Shown one piece after another: positions 48,165 to 60,492 of a stretch of 64,000 nucleotides of DNA. The stretch comes from an uncultured Pseudomonadota bacterium (GTDB lineage Bacteria; Pseudomonadota; Alphaproteobacteria; Rs-D84): assembly GCA_949290785.1 (NCBI GenBank), contig CASETE010000023.1, positions 10,537-74,536 of the forward strand, written 5' to 3'. Numbering within the stretch: the first letter of the stretch is position 1; each line of letters opens with the position of its first letter. The translations under genes and the position numbers were made by a program. The notes under the pieces were generated by a model that was not told where the DNA came from, searched no databases, and was given only the letters and a program-made list of their open reading frames with translations.

Positions 48165-48848
48165 TTGCAAGACCGCATAGAACCGCCAATTTTGCTATCT
48201 AGATTGATGACATTCGTGTTCGCAGGAATGCTGGTTATTTTGTTTGCTTTGCTGTTTACGTTATATAACATGTTCCCCGTAAATCGCCCACAAGTGTTTT
48301 TCTTGATGTCTCGCCCAAAAAGCAACATGCAAATAGTGTTACGCGGAATGGCGCCTTTGGATGAAAATTTCATAGAATACGAAAAAGCATTCATCTTGGA
48401 ATACGTAAAGGCAAGAAACGAAATCGTGCCTAACGCTGGGGTAATGCGCACGAAATGGAATAACAATGGACCAGACAGCGTCGTTCACGCGTGGTCAACC
48501 CAAGACATTTATAACAAATTTACGCAAACTAATATGTGGAACGCTTGGATGTCTGACCTGCCAGATTTTGAGTTTTCTTGCAGCGTGGAATTTGATAATA
48601 ATGCGCTGACTCCGCACGCAGAAGACACTTACATCGTAAAATTTTATTATTTCTGCGCAGATAATAATAGACAGCTGGATAAAAAAGAGTATAGAATAAA
48701 AGTAAAAGTCGATAAAAGCGATAACGCGCAAATAGATTGGTCAGATCGTTTGAATAACCCATTGGGACTTCGCGTTTCGGAATACGAGATAGAGTCTGGA
48801 AACGGCGACCCACTGGATACAGGTTATTCAACAGAAATGAGTATGTAG
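48165..48848 (+). CDS. VirB8-family type IV secretion protein
   Basis: Single N-terminal TM, FILEYVKARN helix, RLNNPLGLRVSEY (NPxG motif); TTG start with GAGG SD. Confidence 0.8.
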   Translation: MQDRIEPPILLSRLMTFVFAGMLVILFALLFTLYNMFPVNRPQVFFLMSRPKSNMQIVLRGMAPLDENFIEYEKAFILEYVKARNEIVPNAGVMRTKWNNNGPDSVVHAWSTQDIYNKFTQTNMWNAWMSDLPDFEFSCSVEFDNNALTPHAEDTYIVKFYYFCADNNRQLDKKEYRIKVKVDKSDNAQIDWSDRLNNPLGLRVSEYEIESGNGDPLDTGYSTEMSM

Positions 48849-48874: not shown

Positions 48875-50419
48875 ATGTTTTCAACAGGTGCAAAGTTAAA
48901 TATATCTATATTTTGTTTCTTTTTAGTTTGCTCTGTTTGTATATCAGACAACGCAATTGCGATGAATTATGGCGTGCAAGACGCTTGGAATAACCCATCT
49001 GCAAACATGACCGCCGGCAGTATGAAGCCGGGCTATGCGCAATTGACGTGGTCAAAGGGTACGGTTTTACCCGTTAAACTACGTAACGGCATGGTAACAA
49101 TGATAACGTTGCCAAACGGCGAACAAATAGAAGATGCAGTGGTTGGAAACAAGAACTTATTTTCCTTTGACGCGACCAAGGGCGGTAATACCATACTAAT
49201 TACCCCGGAAAAAAGTAACCAAGGATCTGACACGAACTTTATCGTAACGGGAAAATCTGGCAATCAGTATATATTCTATCTGCGCAGCGAACCTTCAAAC
49301 GCCAGCGAAGTTACCTATTCTCAAGTAGAAGTCGTTCTGGACAATAACGCAGTATTACCAAATGCCGGCGGTTCAACAGGCGGGGCGGTGGGTGGTTCAT
49401 CGTCCATATTTAAAAAGGTATCTTCGGCAGACAGTAATACCGTCGGCGTTGACGGCGAAGATTATGGTTGGATAAAATCTATGAAAATTGACCCGTCAGA
49501 GTTTAGATTTGACTTAGATATATTCGTACCAAACCCAGATGATTATGTAATTGCGCCTGAACGCGTATGGCGCGATAGAATATTTACTTACATAGACTTT
49601 GGCGACAAGGTCATATCAATGACGCAAAGACCGGTTGTTTCTTTACTGGTAGAAGGCGGTGAATCACCGGTTGGTTTCCGCACAGACGGTGAAGACGGTC
49701 GTCTGTTAATAGTAGAAGCGGTCGGCGATATGGTTTTGCGCAGCGGTCAGCGTATCGTCTGTATAAAGAAACGTGAAAAACCGTTCTTGATTGCAGATAC
49801 CGCATCCGTAATGGCGTTGGCAGAGGCAAATATCGCACAAAGTATGATGTCCGGACAATCTTTAAACAATATTGCGTATAACGCAGATTTATCAGCAATG
49901 AATTATGGCGTAGGTAACTATACCACTACACCAACGTTTGTTGGAAATAATATGACCGGCGGCACAACAGCAGGATATTACATGCCGGCAGGTTACGGCG
50001 TTCCGGCCGCAAATTATGGAACCAGTAGCGGCGGCGGCGTTTCAATGATACCAACAGAAAGGTTAACAGCGGGTTCTTTCTTACCACAGTCAAATATACC
50101 GCTGATTACCACGAACCAATCTGGCGTCGCGGTAGAACTGAAATCTGACACATCTGTAAAAGCGCTGGAAGATTATTGGACGACTTTACTGGCAAAGTTC
50201 AGCGGTGAAAACGGTCAAGGCTTGCTGACGCCTTATAAAGACATGGTATTCTTTGCTGTTGACGCCCAAGGTGTTGGCGATTTGGGTTCAGAATCGTCCA
50301 CGGCACGTTTGTATCGTTTACGCATCGGGCCGATGTCAGATATTGACACAGCGCAAACGCTGTGTGACAAGTTAACTGCGTCCCAAGGGGTAAGTTGCAG
50401 CGTTGTCAGAATACAGTAA
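48875..50419 (+). CDS. VirB9/TrbG-family protein with C-terminal SPOR-like domain
   Basis: Signal peptide, TMITLP.GE.I, TNFIV.G...Y.FYL, P.RVWRD..FTYIDF; C-terminal YRLRIGP......A..LC..L.....C. Confidence 0.75.
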   Translation: MFSTGAKLNISIFCFFLVCSVCISDNAIAMNYGVQDAWNNPSANMTAGSMKPGYAQLTWSKGTVLPVKLRNGMVTMITLPNGEQIEDAVVGNKNLFSFDATKGGNTILITPEKSNQGSDTNFIVTGKSGNQYIFYLRSEPSNASEVTYSQVEVVLDNNAVLPNAGGSTGGAVGGSSSIFKKVSSADSNTVGVDGEDYGWIKSMKIDPSEFRFDLDIFVPNPDDYVIAPERVWRDRIFTYIDFGDKVISMTQRPVVSLLVEGGESPVGFRTDGEDGRLLIVEAVGDMVLRSGQRIVCIKKREKPFLIADTASVMALAEANIAQSMMSGQSLNNIAYNADLSAMNYGVGNYTTTPTFVGNNMTGGTTAGYYMPAGYGVPAANYGTSSGGGVSMIPTERLTAGSFLPQSNIPLITTNQSGVAVELKSDTSVKALEDYWTTLLAKFSGENGQGLLTPYKDMVFFAVDAQGVGDLGSESSTARLYRLRIGPMSDIDTAQTLCDKLTASQGVSCSVVRIQ

Positions 50420-50440: not shown

Positions 50441-52870
50441 ATGAGCACTATAAAACAACAAATTTCTGATTTACGTAAAAATACGCCAAAGCATATTCAA
50501 TGGCTATTATTGGCGGCTGCGTTTGTCGTTGTAATGATTCTGTTAACGTTGCTGTTAACAAGTAAAGAAAAAGAAAAAATTGAAACGACTGAATCGGTGG
50601 CGATACAACTGAAATTTGACCCGGAAATTATAGACATGTCAAACACAATGGTTGGAACAAAAACAACCAGACAAGTCAATTTATCAACAAACGCCCCTAC
50701 AAAAATCGTTGAAGTAAATTTTCTTGAACAGGTTCCTGGTTTAAGCATAAATCAAACATGCGTTGCTAAAAATCAGATAGACGCTAAAAATAATTGTACT
50801 ATCACCTTGGACTATCAACCGACAAGTGATGTATCTACGAAAATTGTTGAATTAGTTGTAAAGTGGCACGGTGCCCAAGAACCCGCTGCAATGACTAAAT
50901 CAACGAACCAAACGGTCGTTATAAGTGCGCAAGCACCAAAACAAGAACCGAAACCAGAACCAGCGCCACAACCAGAACCCGAAACAGAAACCGAACCTGA
51001 ACCTGAACCAGAACCGGTTAAAACGGTAAAGCAGGAAATAAAACAAGAAATCAAAGAAATTGCACCATCGGATCCATTTATAGATGCCGCACCTAAAACG
51101 GCACCTGAAACGCAACCTGTAAAACCGGCAGAGTCTTGTTCTGACTTTGCGTTTCCTGGATACAACTTATCAGGTGTGCAAAGCGGTTGGATTCGTCCAG
51201 AGGCAGGCGCGTATTATTACCATCCTTTTTCAGATAAAAATTGTGACAGCCCGACAGGCGTATACAATCCTGATACAGGTATAATAACAGACATCAACGA
51301 TAATATTACGAAAATAGGAACAGATGCGGAACACATCGGTTATACCAACGTTATAAACCGTGAAATTCCGCAATTATCAAATCCTGCACCTAAAAAAGAA
51401 AAAAATCTTGCGCGGCAATTAACAGCCGACGAATTGGCCGCGTTACCACAAAGCGCCGATGCAACAACAGAAACAGGCAATATTTTTAGAATAACATTAA
51501 ACGATCCTAAAACTAAAATTTATACAGGCAGCAGTAGTGAAAGCGCGGTTTTTTCATCTGACCCATTTGACAGAAAATTCGTATTAAGACAATATAAACC
51601 AATTCCTGCAACAATCGTATCCGAAGTTCGCGCAGACCCTTCTTTATATAATTGCCCAGACGGTGGCGGGGAATGTAAAGGACAAACATTACCAGTACGC
51701 GCAACAGTTGATAGAAACGTATATTCTGATGATGGTCGTACTGTTATTATACCAACAGGTACGTTGCTGTTGGGATATGTAACCGGTGAATTACCTGGAC
51801 CATACAAATCAATTGGTCGTATGCAAATAGAATGGTATCAATTTATATTACCAAATGGCGTTGAATTCAATTTTCATGGTAACAACCCATTTTCTGGCGA
51901 CTCACAGGGGCGCGCGGGGGTTCCGGGGCATGGCAGTACAGACTATGTTGAACAAATTGTTATGCCAATGCTGACCGCGATTGTTCCAGCTGCGGTAAAT
52001 ATGATTGCACCAATCGCAGATACGTTTGTTAACCAAATTGATTTGGATAACAATACAGTTGTTCAATCAGGTACAGTACGTTCATCTGAATTGGCAAAGA
52101 ATGAAATAATAAATGCATGGAATCAGGTTGCACAGAAATTACTGGTTGATGCAATGGACAATACAATACCACCATTTTCAATTGCAGCCGGTACACGTAT
52201 AACAGTCTTTTCACCAGAAGATTTGGTAATTACATGTGGCAACGATGACACAAAAGAATGTTCTGTTAAAAACGTTAAAGAAAACACCAGTCTGGATGAT
52301 ATACGCAATCTACGTAATGATGAATGGGATACGAAAGGCCCAACTGTAAAATATGAAGATTCTTCGTGGGTTGGTCAGGTACGTTCGTTTAATCTGAGAG
52401 AAGACTATTGCACAAAAGGTTCTAACGGTCTTTTTGAGATTAATAAAGAAAAAATAGAAGACATTTATAAATCTGGCTATGATTACAGAACTGTTTTGGC
52501 ATATTGTCAGTCGCTAAATTACCAAGCGATAAACAACGCAAAACAAAATGCGTATTATCAGAACCAAACAACAACTTTCCAGACAACCTATGGACAACCC
52601 GGCAGTCAAACGACCGAACAACAACAGGCATATAATGAAGATATACTTGGTTTAACTTATGAAGATGGGGTTATTCAAAACCCGTTCCAAGATAATAACA
52701 GTGCGGAAACCTTGCCTGTGGAAACGCCTACGAACGTATTAATCTGCCCTGATGGCACAATCCCAGATGAATACGGTTGTTGCGCAGGTGAAATTTATAC
52801 AGATATGGGCGACCAAGGGTTCAATTGCTGTCCAGAAACAGGTGGCGATTGTTTCCCGCCCATAAAGTAA
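50441..52870 (+). CDS. VirB10/TrbI-family protein with Ig-like domain, Pro/Glu linker and Cys-rich tail
   Basis: N-terminal TM, IPATI, RATVDRNVYSDDG..VIIPTGT.L.G, DSQGRAGVPG, IPPFSIAAGTRITVF...DL. Confidence 0.8.
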   Translation: MSTIKQQISDLRKNTPKHIQWLLLAAAFVVVMILLTLLLTSKEKEKIETTESVAIQLKFDPEIIDMSNTMVGTKTTRQVNLSTNAPTKIVEVNFLEQVPGLSINQTCVAKNQIDAKNNCTITLDYQPTSDVSTKIVELVVKWHGAQEPAAMTKSTNQTVVISAQAPKQEPKPEPAPQPEPETETEPEPEPEPVKTVKQEIKQEIKEIAPSDPFIDAAPKTAPETQPVKPAESCSDFAFPGYNLSGVQSGWIRPEAGAYYYHPFSDKNCDSPTGVYNPDTGIITDINDNITKIGTDAEHIGYTNVINREIPQLSNPAPKKEKNLARQLTADELAALPQSADATTETGNIFRITLNDPKTKIYTGSSSESAVFSSDPFDRKFVLRQYKPIPATIVSEVRADPSLYNCPDGGGECKGQTLPVRATVDRNVYSDDGRTVIIPTGTLLLGYVTGELPGPYKSIGRMQIEWYQFILPNGVEFNFHGNNPFSGDSQGRAGVPGHGSTDYVEQIVMPMLTAIVPAAVNMIAPIADTFVNQIDLDNNTVVQSGTVRSSELAKNEIINAWNQVAQKLLVDAMDNTIPPFSIAAGTRITVFSPEDLVITCGNDDTKECSVKNVKENTSLDDIRNLRNDEWDTKGPTVKYEDSSWVGQVRSFNLREDYCTKGSNGLFEINKEKIEDIYKSGYDYRTVLAYCQSLNYQAINNAKQNAYYQNQTTTFQTTYGQPGSQTTEQQQAYNEDILGLTYEDGVIQNPFQDNNSAETLPVETPTNVLICPDGTIPDEYGCCAGEIYTDMGDQGFNCCPETGGDCFPPIK
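50934..51016 (+). repeat. Degenerate 6-nt coding repeat (GAACCN) giving an EP/PE linker
   Basis: gaaccg aaacca gaacca ... gaacct gaacct gaacca gaaccg. Confidence 0.7.
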
Positions 52871-52877
52871 GCAAGAT

Positions 52878-52903
52878 CCCGCCAATTTGGCGGGTTTGTT
52901 TTT
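52878..52903 (+). terminator. Terminator of the virB8-10 operon
   Basis: CCCGCCA-ATT-TGGCGGG followed by TTTGTTTTT. Confidence 0.8.
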
Positions 52904-53166: not shown

Positions 53167-53517
53167 ATGACATCGCAAAACATACAAACTTTATATACAG
53201 CAGAAAAATTTCAAAATGCAGAACAATTGTGGTTTTGGTTCTTGTATTCTAAATCTGTACAAAACGGTTTCTTGCGAACAAGAACAAATTGCACTAAACG
53301 TCCGTGCGAATTATTAGACGTAGAATCGTTGATTACAAAATTATATCTTTCTGGACGACTAACCGAAGAACAATTGGACGTGATGAAAAAATTTGGTGAC
53401 CGCAGGCGCGCGCCTCATCAATATATATGGGCCGAAAATCGCGCAGCAGATTTATGGCGACGCGCAATGCTGGTATTAGAAAACGCCGCAAAACAACGCG
53501 GTTGGATTGAACAATAA
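53167..53517 (+). CDS. Hypothetical protein (F..AE..WFWF...RPCE..D...LY type)
   Basis: AGGAGG SD, 116 aa; motif pattern recalled from Rhodospirillales-type hypothetical proteins. Confidence 0.8.
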   Translation: MTSQNIQTLYTAEKFQNAEQLWFWFLYSKSVQNGFLRTRTNCTKRPCELLDVESLITKLYLSGRLTEEQLDVMKKFGDRRRAPHQYIWAENRAADLWRRAMLVLENAAKQRGWIEQ

Positions 53518-59304: not shown

Positions 59305-60492
59305 CTAGTGAAATATATAACAATCAATTCCGGCGTTGTCTGCCCTGCTTTTTACGTTTTGCGCAGAACTGTCCGATAAGCCATTTGCACGAACACGATA
59401 CATTCCGTTTGGCGCATCTTCAATTACCGTGCTGATGCCCAGTTTATTCTTAACAAGGCTGACCTGTTTTTGTGCGGCGCTGCGCGAAGAAAAAGCACCA
59501 AACTGTACCCCTGCCCCACCGGCAGTTAATTTATTTTCAGTTTTTTTCACGGCGTAATTATCAGTACTTTTATGTTGCGACGCACCAGTTGTAGCAGCGT
59601 TATATGCAGCCCTGAAAGTCGGCGCTGAATAATCAGCTGAATAATCAACAGTTTGCGCAGGCGCATAATAAGTCTGTGACATAGAAGGCACCTCGCCGCT
59701 ATCAACCATAGCAAAACCCTTATTTAACAGTTTTGCCGCAGTATTTGCACGAACATCTTTGTTTTCAGCGCCTAAAACGACAGATATTAAATGATGATTA
59801 TCACGTTTAGCCGTTGCAACCAACGAATAGCGCGATTTGTTAGTATACCCTGTTTTCATACCATCACACCCAGGATAAGTCCCCAGCAATCTGTTACCGT
59901 TAGTATAAGTTTTACCGTTATAAGTCCACGTTTTGATACTGAAATACTTCCAATATTGAGGGAAATGCTTATAAATTGCCATGGACAATAGCGCTATGTC
60001 ACGCGCAGTAGATAATTGGTCATCGTTCGGCAACCCAGACGAATTTTCAAAATTAGTCCCAGACAACCCAATTTCATTTGCCACGCGCGTCATTAGTTCT
60101 GCAAAATTACCCTCTTTCCCACCTTTCAAATTTTCTGCCAACACGCGCGCGACATCATTAGCACTTAACACCGTAAGCGCTTTTATCGCATCTTCTACTT
60201 TTATTTTACTGCCGGCAGACACCCCAAGTTTGACAGGTGACGCAGCCGCCGCAGATTGCGAAACAATCAAATAATCGTCTAAATGCAAACGTCCGTGTTC
60301 CAACGCATCAAACGTTAAATACAACGTCATAATCTTAGTCAAACTGGCAGGATAATTTTGAACGCTTGCGTTTTCCTGATAAAGTATTCGCCCGCTATCC
60401 ATATCTGCAACCAAAGCGGCCTTGTACTGCGCCGCAAAAGCAGTGCCACACATAAAATATGTAACAAGAAAAATCCCAACCAACCTTTTCAT
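59305..60492 (-). CDS. D-alanyl-D-alanine carboxypeptidase (S11) with C-terminal SPOR domain
   Basis: PASLTK, SAND, KTGY; VQFGAFS...YRVR. Confidence 0.92.
   Translation of the reverse strand: MKRLVGIFLVTYFMCGTAFAAQYKAALVADMDSGRILYQENASVQNYPASLTKIMTLYLTFDALEHGRLHLDDYLIVSQSAAAASPVKLGVSAGSKIKVEDAIKALTVLSANDVARVLAENLKGGKEGNFAELMTRVANEIGLSGTNFENSSGLPNDDQLSTARDIALLSMAIYKHFPQYWKYFSIKTWTYNGKTYTNGNRLLGTYPGCDGMKTGYTNKSRYSLVATAKRDNHHLISVVLGAENKDVRANTAAKLLNKGFAMVDSGEVPSMSQTYYAPAQTVDYSADYSAPTFRAAYNAATTGASQHKSTDNYAVKKTENKLTAGGAGVQFGAFSSRSAAQKQVSLVKNKLGISTVIEDAPNGMYRVRANGLSDSSAQNVKSRADNAGIDCYIFH

What the first reader, a model, noticed from the sequence alone, without database searches (positions are those of the whole stretch)
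49780..50419. VirB9 fused to a SPOR-like peptidoglycan-binding domain
Seen: after the VirB9-like region comes a ~110-aa G/S/M/Y/T-rich linker, then VAVEL...A...W..L...YRLRIGPM.....A..LC.KL.....C.VV, the pattern of alphaproteobacterial SPOR domains with the terminal Cys pair. Established: SPOR domains bind amidase-denuded glycan at the division septum. I do not know this fusion from characterised T4SSs. Inference: the channel is assembled at the septum or new pole, linking secretion or DNA transfer to division.
Basis: partly seen in the sequence, partly recalled or inferred. Interest (0 to 1): 0.72.

Follow-up and report, generated by a model that had tools for sequence, protein, structure and literature searches.

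The report
Secretion channel with altered wall-binding tail
In a tiny-genome gut bacterium, the outer-ring protein (VirB9) of a type IV secretion machine ends in a conserved cell-wall-binding-type (SPOR) domain whose key sugar-contacting glutamine is replaced by glutamate, so it likely ties the machine to the cell wall, but targeting to the division site is doubtful and untested.

Summary
The fusion is real. ORF 48875-50419 (514 aa) scores as CagX/VirB9 plus SPOR above Pfam cut-offs. The isolated tail folds confidently, with SPOR domains as its closest named matches. It lies in a virB8-virB9-virB10 operon of Ca. Enterousia (order Rs-D84); virB2, B3, B4, B7, B11 and D4 are scattered elsewhere. 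The full-length fusion is in 150 of 151 order genomes and in 18 genomes of 11 other small-genome alphaproteobacterial families; degenerate tails occur on relaxase-bearing plasmids. The tail is under purifying selection (dN/dS 0.033). However, the glycan-binding Gln is Glu in nearly all members (one Gln, one Asp seen), whereas the same order's FtsN-like (30/30) and DacA (21/21) SPOR domains keep Gln. In E. coli FtsN, Q251E weakens denuded-glycan binding and halves septal localisation. Best reading: a multivalent cell-wall tether with a remodelled site. Septal targeting is possible but not supported, and DNA transfer is unlikely because no relaxase was found. I found no paper on the fusion. This scan reported the same fusion on other genomes. 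New variant of a known kind.

The parts
48165..48848 (+). virB8 (227 aa from a TTG start), first gene of the operon
   Evidence: Pfam VirB8 E 4.1e-11
48875..50419 (+). virB9-SPOR fusion gene, 514 aa
48875..48961 (+). likely Sec signal peptide (aa 1-29)
   Evidence: read from the sequence (hydrophobic core, A-I-A end); least conserved part, 35% mean identity; no predictor run
49019..49339 (+). VirB9 N-terminal (I-layer) beta domain, about aa 49-155
   Evidence: pLDDT above 90; Foldseek to the TrwF/VirB9 N-terminal domain 7o3t, TMt 0.79
49466..49771 (+). VirB9 C-terminal (O-layer) domain, about aa 198-299
   Evidence: Foldseek to 2ofq and 2n01; 97.5% mean identity; dN/dS 0.003
49775..50119 (+). 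115-aa tether: conserved low-confidence helices (aa 309-343), then a low-complexity G/T/N/A/Y/M stretch
   Evidence: pLDDT 38-55; identity 79% then 52%; composition
50120..50416 (+). SPOR-fold domain, aa 416-514
   Evidence: dN/dS 0.033
50135..50137 (+). E421, in the column of the canonical glycan-binding Gln
   Evidence: HHalign register; E in 96 of 96, 120 of 120 and 117 of 117
50315..50323 (+). R481-L-R483, retained basic patch of the YRLRIG strand
   Evidence: R483 invariant; R481 mostly R, sometimes H or Y
50363..50398 (+). C497 and C508, invariant pair, likely a disulfide
   Evidence: invariant in alignment A3 and; the bond itself is inferred
50441..52870 (+). virB10, 809 aa, with extra N-terminal, middle and C-terminal modules
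   Evidence: Pfam TrbI aa 385-596, E 3e-17; conservation blocks
52878..52894 (.). terminator-like hairpin listed on both strands, just after virB10
   Evidence: pattern scan only; overall count near chance (10 against 6.1 +/- 2.6)

Best explanation
[quoted passage not shown] Shown: domain content, fold match, operon, partner genes, conservation, selection and the Gln-to-Glu change. From established T4SS structure: VirB9 forms a ring of 14 or more copies with VirB7 and VirB10, its C-terminal domain in the outer ring of the O-layer. Inferred: each ring would carry 14 or more SPOR tails hanging into the periplasm; many weak contacts (kept arginine patch and backbone contacts, Glu in place of Gln) would hold the machine on the wall with little preference for amidase-stripped septal glycan. 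Inferred, less firmly: the machine likely secretes proteins or makes contact with a partner cell rather than moving DNA.
For: Fold and family. Selection: dN/dS 0.033 against 0.043 for the VirB9 N-terminal domain and 0.128 for the linker, from 18 pairs. Core gene: 150 of 151 order genomes full length. The tail hangs on a tether of variable length (about 160-290 residues after the VirB9 core in the 19 strong representatives), which suits a target at no fixed distance. Basic patch kept; most RlpA-glycan contacts are to main-chain atoms (PMC6895207, passages). Wall genes are present: transpeptidases in 61 of 61, amidase in 58 of 61 (51 of 51 near-complete genomes). Remodelled site: Glu in nearly all members while FtsN-like (30 of 30) and DacA (21 of 21) SPOR domains of the order keep Gln. 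Partner genes. Ring architecture: PMC12857230, passages.
Against: No binding or localisation data exist. Glu at this site weakens glycan binding in FtsN, so the domain may not bind the wall at all. The RlpA F274 aromatic is also missing (D, G, N, H at 425), though it is missing too in 14 of the 30 FtsN-like controls, so this says little. Canonical T4SSs work without such a tail, and 39 related VirB9s form a tail-less branch. VirB5 and VirB6 were not found in this genome, so a complete machine is not shown.
Confidence: 0.45

Rival explanations
1. One reading: the tail still prefers amidase-denuded septal glycan, and a ring of 14 or more weakened copies acts by avidity, so the machine is built at the septum and inherited at new poles.
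For: All characterised SPOR domains bind denuded glycan (bioRxiv 10.1101/2022.07.01.498525, abstract). Isolated FtsN SPOR Q251E keeps about half of its septal localisation. Arginine patch kept. Amidase in 51 of 51 near-complete order genomes. The tail aligns over its full length with the order's FtsN-like SPOR domains. [quoted passage not shown] One family member (P0130) keeps Gln.
Against: Glu is fixed over many families rather than drifting, while neighbouring SPOR proteins keep Gln; a domain selected for denuded-glycan binding would be expected to keep Gln.
Confidence: 0.25
2. The SPOR fold has become a protein-docking module: it binds another T4SS part, itself around the ring, or the SPOR domain of a divisome protein, with the Glu-Arg pair serving structure.
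For: Near-invariant residues outside the canonical glycan site (E421, R512, terminal Q514). Glycan-independent SPOR-SPOR interaction is reported for FtsN and survives Q251E. The full tail co-occurs with enlarged VirB10 proteins.
Against: The long tether of variable length fits a fixed dock inside the machine poorly. The arginine patch is kept. No partner is identified.
Confidence: 0.25
3. The tail is a relic or passenger with no current role.
For: The canonical Gln is lost. Tails decay or vanish in plasmid-type relatives: 25 with only a Cys pair, and losses scattered inside that branch.
Against: dN/dS 0.033; 78% mean identity; kept in 150 of 151 genomes of about 0.5-1.1 Mb.
Confidence: 0.05

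Closest known systems
VirB9/TrwF/TraO/CagX of type IVA secretion outer-membrane core complexes (X. citri 6gyb, R388 8rt6, pKM101 2ofq)
   Same: Two beta domains matching the I-layer and O-layer domains; between virB8 and virB10; a VirB7-type small lipoprotein gene exists in the genome.
   Different: About 215 extra C-terminal residues ending in a SPOR fold. A 2025 T4SS review has no occurrence of 'SPOR' in its main text (PMC12857230).
SPOR domains (PF05036) of RlpA, FtsN, DamX, DedD and CwlC
   Same: Fold, RxRxG strand, C-terminal position on a flexible linker, periplasmic location (inferred); full-length profile match to the order's FtsN-like SPOR domains.
   Different: Gln is Glu, no aromatic at the F274 position, longer loops; carried by a secretion-ring subunit, not a division or wall enzyme.
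Rickettsiales rvh T4SS (PMC2653234, abstract and passages)
   Same: Genes scattered over the chromosome, conserved across the lineage, virB8 duplicated, no virB5 found.
   Different: rvh has two virB9, two virB4 and five virB6; here one virB9, one virB4, three virB8-like genes and no virB6 found. The passages read mention no SPOR tail (SPOR was not searched in that paper).
Legionella T2SS secretin LspD (predicted N-terminal SPOR) and P. aeruginosa PilQ (peptidoglycan-binding)
   Same: An outer-membrane channel subunit of an envelope machine that carries its own wall-binding domain (PMC6617341, passage).
   Different: Different machine families; here the domain is C-terminal on VirB9 and has the Glu change.
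Plasmid T4SSs of Sphingosinicella sp. BN140058 p1, Erythrobacter aureus YH-07 and Microvirga sp. VF16
   Same: Closest named VirB9 relatives (33-38% over the core); VirB3, B4, B8, B10, B11 and D4 also match this genome. Two of the three have a detectable degenerate SPOR-like tail with Asp at the Gln site (27.9 and 23.6 bits, reversed-sequence control at most 2.4).
   Different: One contiguous virB2-D4 operon beside a MobA/MobL relaxase; the tail is degenerate. None is known to me as experimentally studied.

Membership tests
VirB9/CagX | PF03524 above the gathering score | tested here: met
   81.5 bits against 34.2
VirB9/CagX | Two-domain fold matching solved VirB9 proteins | tested here: met
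   Foldseek 6gyb E 2e-16, 8rt6 E 4.5e-16
VirB9/CagX | Encoded with virB8 and virB10 | tested here: met
   virB10 found in 79 and virB8 in 74 of 83 related loci
SPOR domain (PF05036) | Profile score above cut-off | tested here: met
   27.2 bits against 21, second half of the profile only; many homologues fall below the cut-off
SPOR domain (PF05036) | beta-alpha-beta-beta-alpha-beta fold superposing on solved SPOR domains | tested here: met
Canonical denuded-glycan-binding SPOR | Conserved Gln on strand 1 (RlpA Q270, FtsN Q251) | tested here: not met
   E421; Glu in nearly all members
Canonical denuded-glycan-binding SPOR | Basic patch on the sheet | tested here: met
   R481 and R483 kept; their match to RlpA R309/R311 rests on the RxR motif, numbering recalled
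Canonical denuded-glycan-binding SPOR | Aromatic at the F274 position (preferred, not required) | tested here: not met
   D425; D, G, N, H or A in relatives; also absent in 14 of 30 FtsN-like controls
Canonical denuded-glycan-binding SPOR | Binds denuded glycan and localises to septa | not testable with these tools
   needs bench work
Complete VirB/VirD4 T4SS | VirB2, B3, B4, B7, B8, B9, B10, B11 and D4 present | tested here: met
   (VirB2 by a profile of relatives, E 2e-14; VirB7 by motif and position)
Complete VirB/VirD4 T4SS | VirB5 and VirB6 present | tested here: inconclusive
   no PF04610 match; small home-made profiles found nothing below E 0.2; genome 97% complete, divergent copies could be missed
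Conjugative T4SS | Cognate relaxase | tested here: inconclusive
   PF03389 absent from this genome; PF03432 over cut-off in 1 of 31, not this genome; other relaxase families not searched

The most novel reading that the evidence does not exclude
A lineage-wide class of domesticated type IV secretion machines, a core gene set of Rs-D84 and shared by at least 11 other small-genome alphaproteobacterial families, wears a crown of 14 or more Glu-type SPOR domains that read a new wall signal and place the organelle by which these partner-dependent gut bacteria attach to and feed from other cells at a defined site such as the new pole. It would be the first VirB-type T4SS positioned by a domain of its own core ring, and the first natural SPOR class with changed specificity.
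Probability: 0.2. Interest if true: 0.8.

Novelty: new variant of a known kind. Interest (0 to 1): 0.52.

Why it matters
How VirB-type secretion rings are fixed to, or placed in, the wall is poorly defined, and this family supplies a built-in candidate that can be tested as a 100-residue domain in laboratory E. coli. It also offers a natural SPOR subfamily that has fixed the very substitution used to cripple FtsN's glycan binding, which tests the rule that all SPOR domains bind denuded glycan. Rs-D84 bacteria are predicted to depend on partner cells (PMC12306168, whole text read; it does not mention a secretion system), and a T4SS ring subunit kept by nearly every sub-1.1-Mb genome of the order is a strong lead on how they do so.

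Tried and rejected
Complex prediction of the tail (aa 410-514) with VirB10 (aa 45-809): no answer, score 0.00 in both runs against a mark of 0.32, controls not folded; not evidence either way. Idea that Glu recognises N-deacetylated glycan: no Polysacc_deac_1 or _2 match in this genome, so set aside. A natural experiment in wall-less or amidase-less members: none exists in the sample. A second VirB9: the extra matches in 5 genomes examined covered only the tail and were other SPOR proteins where inspected. Sequence-only PDB searches gave only chance hits or one weak CwlC hit for the FtsN-like control. Net charge of the domain (mean -3) does not separate it from controls, since the RlpA control is also -3. 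Expression: no RNA holder listed. Promoter scan at chance level. The careful tree did not finish; only the quick tree is used, 4 partial or chimeric rows and rows under 380 aa were left out, and it has no outgroup root, so no direction of transfer is claimed. Three primary SPOR papers (Duncan 2013, Williams 2013, Yahashiri 2017) were not held; their results are cited second-hand from PMC6895207 and bioRxiv 2024.05.13.594014. Begmatov 2023 on Enterousia was not looked up and might mention the T4SS.

Full report
Observation. The finding covers the last 213 codons of a 514-aa ORF at 48875-50419. Pfam gives CagX/VirB9 at aa 56-299 (E 9.4e-23) and SPOR at aa 474-512 (27.2 bits, cut-off 21); the flanking genes are virB8 and an 809-aa virB10. 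The full-length AlphaFold model has three confident domains joined by low-confidence links, and its best Foldseek hits are VirB9 chains of X. citri and R388. The last 103 residues folded alone reach mean pLDDT 86. Foldseek ranks RlpA SPOR first and second and CwlC SPOR third. VIA-align ranks a B. pseudomallei exported protein domain first (6ozd, Z 10.3, rmsd 2.9, 85 aligned), then RlpA (Z 8.6, rmsd 2.4, 77 aligned), CwlC, DedD and DamX.

Organism and machine. The named relatives are Ca. Enterousia and unnamed Alphaproteobacteria, that is order Rs-D84, described as reduced-genome, rod-shaped and probably partner-dependent (PMC12306168, whole text). The genome is 999,534 bases and 97% complete. 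The other T4SS genes lie apart: virB3-virB4 and virD4 on C11, virB11 on C2, a 48-aa VirB7-type lipoprotein followed by two more virB8-like genes on C2, and a VirB2-like pilin on C6 (E 2e-14 to a profile of 6 relatives). VirB5 and VirB6 were not found. No MobA/MobL relaxase is in this genome; PF03432 passed its cut-off in 1 of 31 genomes and not in this one. The layout resembles the scattered Rickettsiales rvh system (PMC2653234, abstract and passages).

Distribution. A profile of the whole protein matched 151 of 151 order genomes; 150 matches run to the end of the SPOR domain with no stop, across all six families; the exception is a 72% complete genome. In a class-wide draw of 401 genomes, 42 matched at E 1e-15; 22 were full length: 4 of this order and 18 from 11 other families with genomes of 0.9-2.5 Mb. 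One related protein with the same tail is named Acetobacter sp. CAG:977; that this belongs to order RF32 is recalled. In 13 of those 18 genomes I read about 20 kb around the gene: virB10 is greatly enlarged (single ORFs of 1273-2831 aa in 10, two large ORFs in 3), virB11 follows in 11, and no ORF had a plasmid relaxase as best hit. The ESM Atlas holds a cluster of 2,439 members, 98% CagX and 52% SPOR, so automatic annotation already shows the architecture. Among 125 more distant VirB9s (126 examined), a profile of the tail scored 19 as strong, 11 as weak (10 bits or more; reversed controls at most 2.4), 25 had only the terminal Cys pair and 70, fragments included, had none. Two of three named plasmid systems beside a MobA/MobL gene have a weak tail. 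On a quick tree of the VirB9 core (120 rows), the 38 full-tail proteins form one side of a branch (SH-aLRT 100), 39 tail-less proteins another (96); the root is arbitrary.

The binding site. In RlpA, Q270 is the one highly conserved side chain and donates hydrogen bonds to the lactyl carboxylate and an N-acetyl group; three arginines form a basic patch, and most other contacts are main-chain (PMC6895207, passages). Profile alignment to the order's own FtsN-like SPOR domains puts E421 in the Gln column without gaps (probability 98%). E421 is Glu in 96 of 96 distinct locus proteins, in 120 of 120 and 117 of 117 protein clusters, in 10 of 11 genomes of other order families (one Asp), and in 17 of 19 distant representatives (one Asp, one Gln); these sets overlap and are related, so they are not independent. 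Weak tails have Asp in 6 and Glu in 1 of the 7 aligned there. As controls, FtsN-like proteins keep Gln in 30 of 30 loci and DacA-SPOR proteins in 21 of 21 with a tail (23 of 30 fetched loci examined, 2 without tail). In E. coli FtsN, Q251E is described as defective in denuded-glycan binding, with septal localisation of the isolated domain down about two-fold, while SPOR-SPOR interaction persists (bioRxiv 10.1101/2024.05.13.594014, passages; its supplements were not visible). R483, both cysteines, R512 and Q514 are nearly invariant. dN/dS of the domain is 0.033 over 18 close pairs, like the VirB9 N-terminal domain (0.043). The domain is therefore functional but not canonical.

Mechanism. VirB9 C-terminal domains form the outer ring of the O-layer in 14 or more copies (PMC12857230, passages). 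The tails would hang from that ring on flexible tethers. I favour a multivalent wall anchor with a remodelled site (0.45). Avidity-based septal targeting (0.25) remains possible because the amidase is present in 51 of 51 near-complete order genomes and Q251E only halves localisation. A protein-docking role (0.25) fits the unusual invariant residues. A relic (0.05) is nearly excluded. None of the first three is tested.

Novelty. Searches for 'SPOR domain' with 'VirB9', 'Rs-D84' with 'type IV secretion' and RF32 with type IV secretion and three more terms returned no paper. Broader searches listed none that described the fusion, judged from listings and term counts; two papers hold both 'SPOR' and 'VirB9' and were not opened. 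Most subscription journals are outside the library. Wall-binding domains on outer-membrane channels have precedent in LspD and PilQ. Earlier notes of this scan report the same fusion, two of them with the Glu change, on other genomes; my reading with the Glu change was recorded before I saw them. Added here are the order-wide count, the spread to 11 further families with giant VirB10, the degenerate plasmid tails, the matched Gln controls and the selection estimate. Verdict: real, conserved, apparently undescribed; a new variant of a known kind; interest 0.52.

Noticed in passing
L164-L176 (handles G168, G256, G207, G188, G173, G227, G257, G532, G478, G506, G416, G152, G363): In the other families with the fusion, VirB10 is giant (1273-2831 aa in 10 of 13, two large ORFs in 3), usually preceded by two virB8 genes and a run of exported proteins, and followed by virB11.
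   Followed up: partly
window 50441-52870: VirB10 has an Ig-like N-terminal region (weak ASH hit), a conserved Cys-containing module at about aa 228-312 and a highly conserved Cys-rich C-terminal 35 aa.
   Followed up: partly
G000 C2:48386-49911 (minus strand): A second islet, virB7-virB8-virB8, directly after bamA; the 48-aa VirB7 shares a P-C-A-C motif with plasmid VirB7 proteins.
   Followed up: partly
G000 C2:28375-40054: Genes that look like phage head scaffold, capsid, connector, tail, terminase and portal, interleaved with housekeeping genes; possibly a domesticated phage or gene-transfer-agent-like set (by eye, labels recalled, not scanned).
   Followed up: no
G000 C9:3565-8224 and C11:90395-96804: A type IV pilus or T2SS-like cluster (T2SSE ATPase, E 3e-64) and several prepilin-like genes: a second contact apparatus in a 1-Mb genome.
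   Followed up: no
L180 and L183 (G303, G447): A tail-less sister system: virB2-B3-B4 ... virB8-virB9 followed by a lipoprotein-like ORF and a pilus-type ATPase cluster, with no virB10 next to virB9.
   Followed up: no
P0130: A VirB9-SPOR representative that keeps the canonical Gln; a natural comparator for binding tests.
   Followed up: partly
window 59305-60492 (minus strand): D-Ala-D-Ala carboxypeptidase with a canonical SPOR domain, 9 kb from virB9; used as a control.
   Followed up: yes
PDB 6ozd residues 80-166: The best VIA-align match is a domain of the uncharacterised B. pseudomallei exported protein BPSS2145, which may be an unannotated SPOR-like domain.
   Followed up: no
L064 and L079: Contigs titled Muribaculaceae and Bacteroides fragilis carry a 75-76% identical virB9; probably mis-binned Enterousia contigs.
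   Followed up: no
window 53167-53517: 116-aa ORF after the operon with no Pfam match.
   Followed up: no
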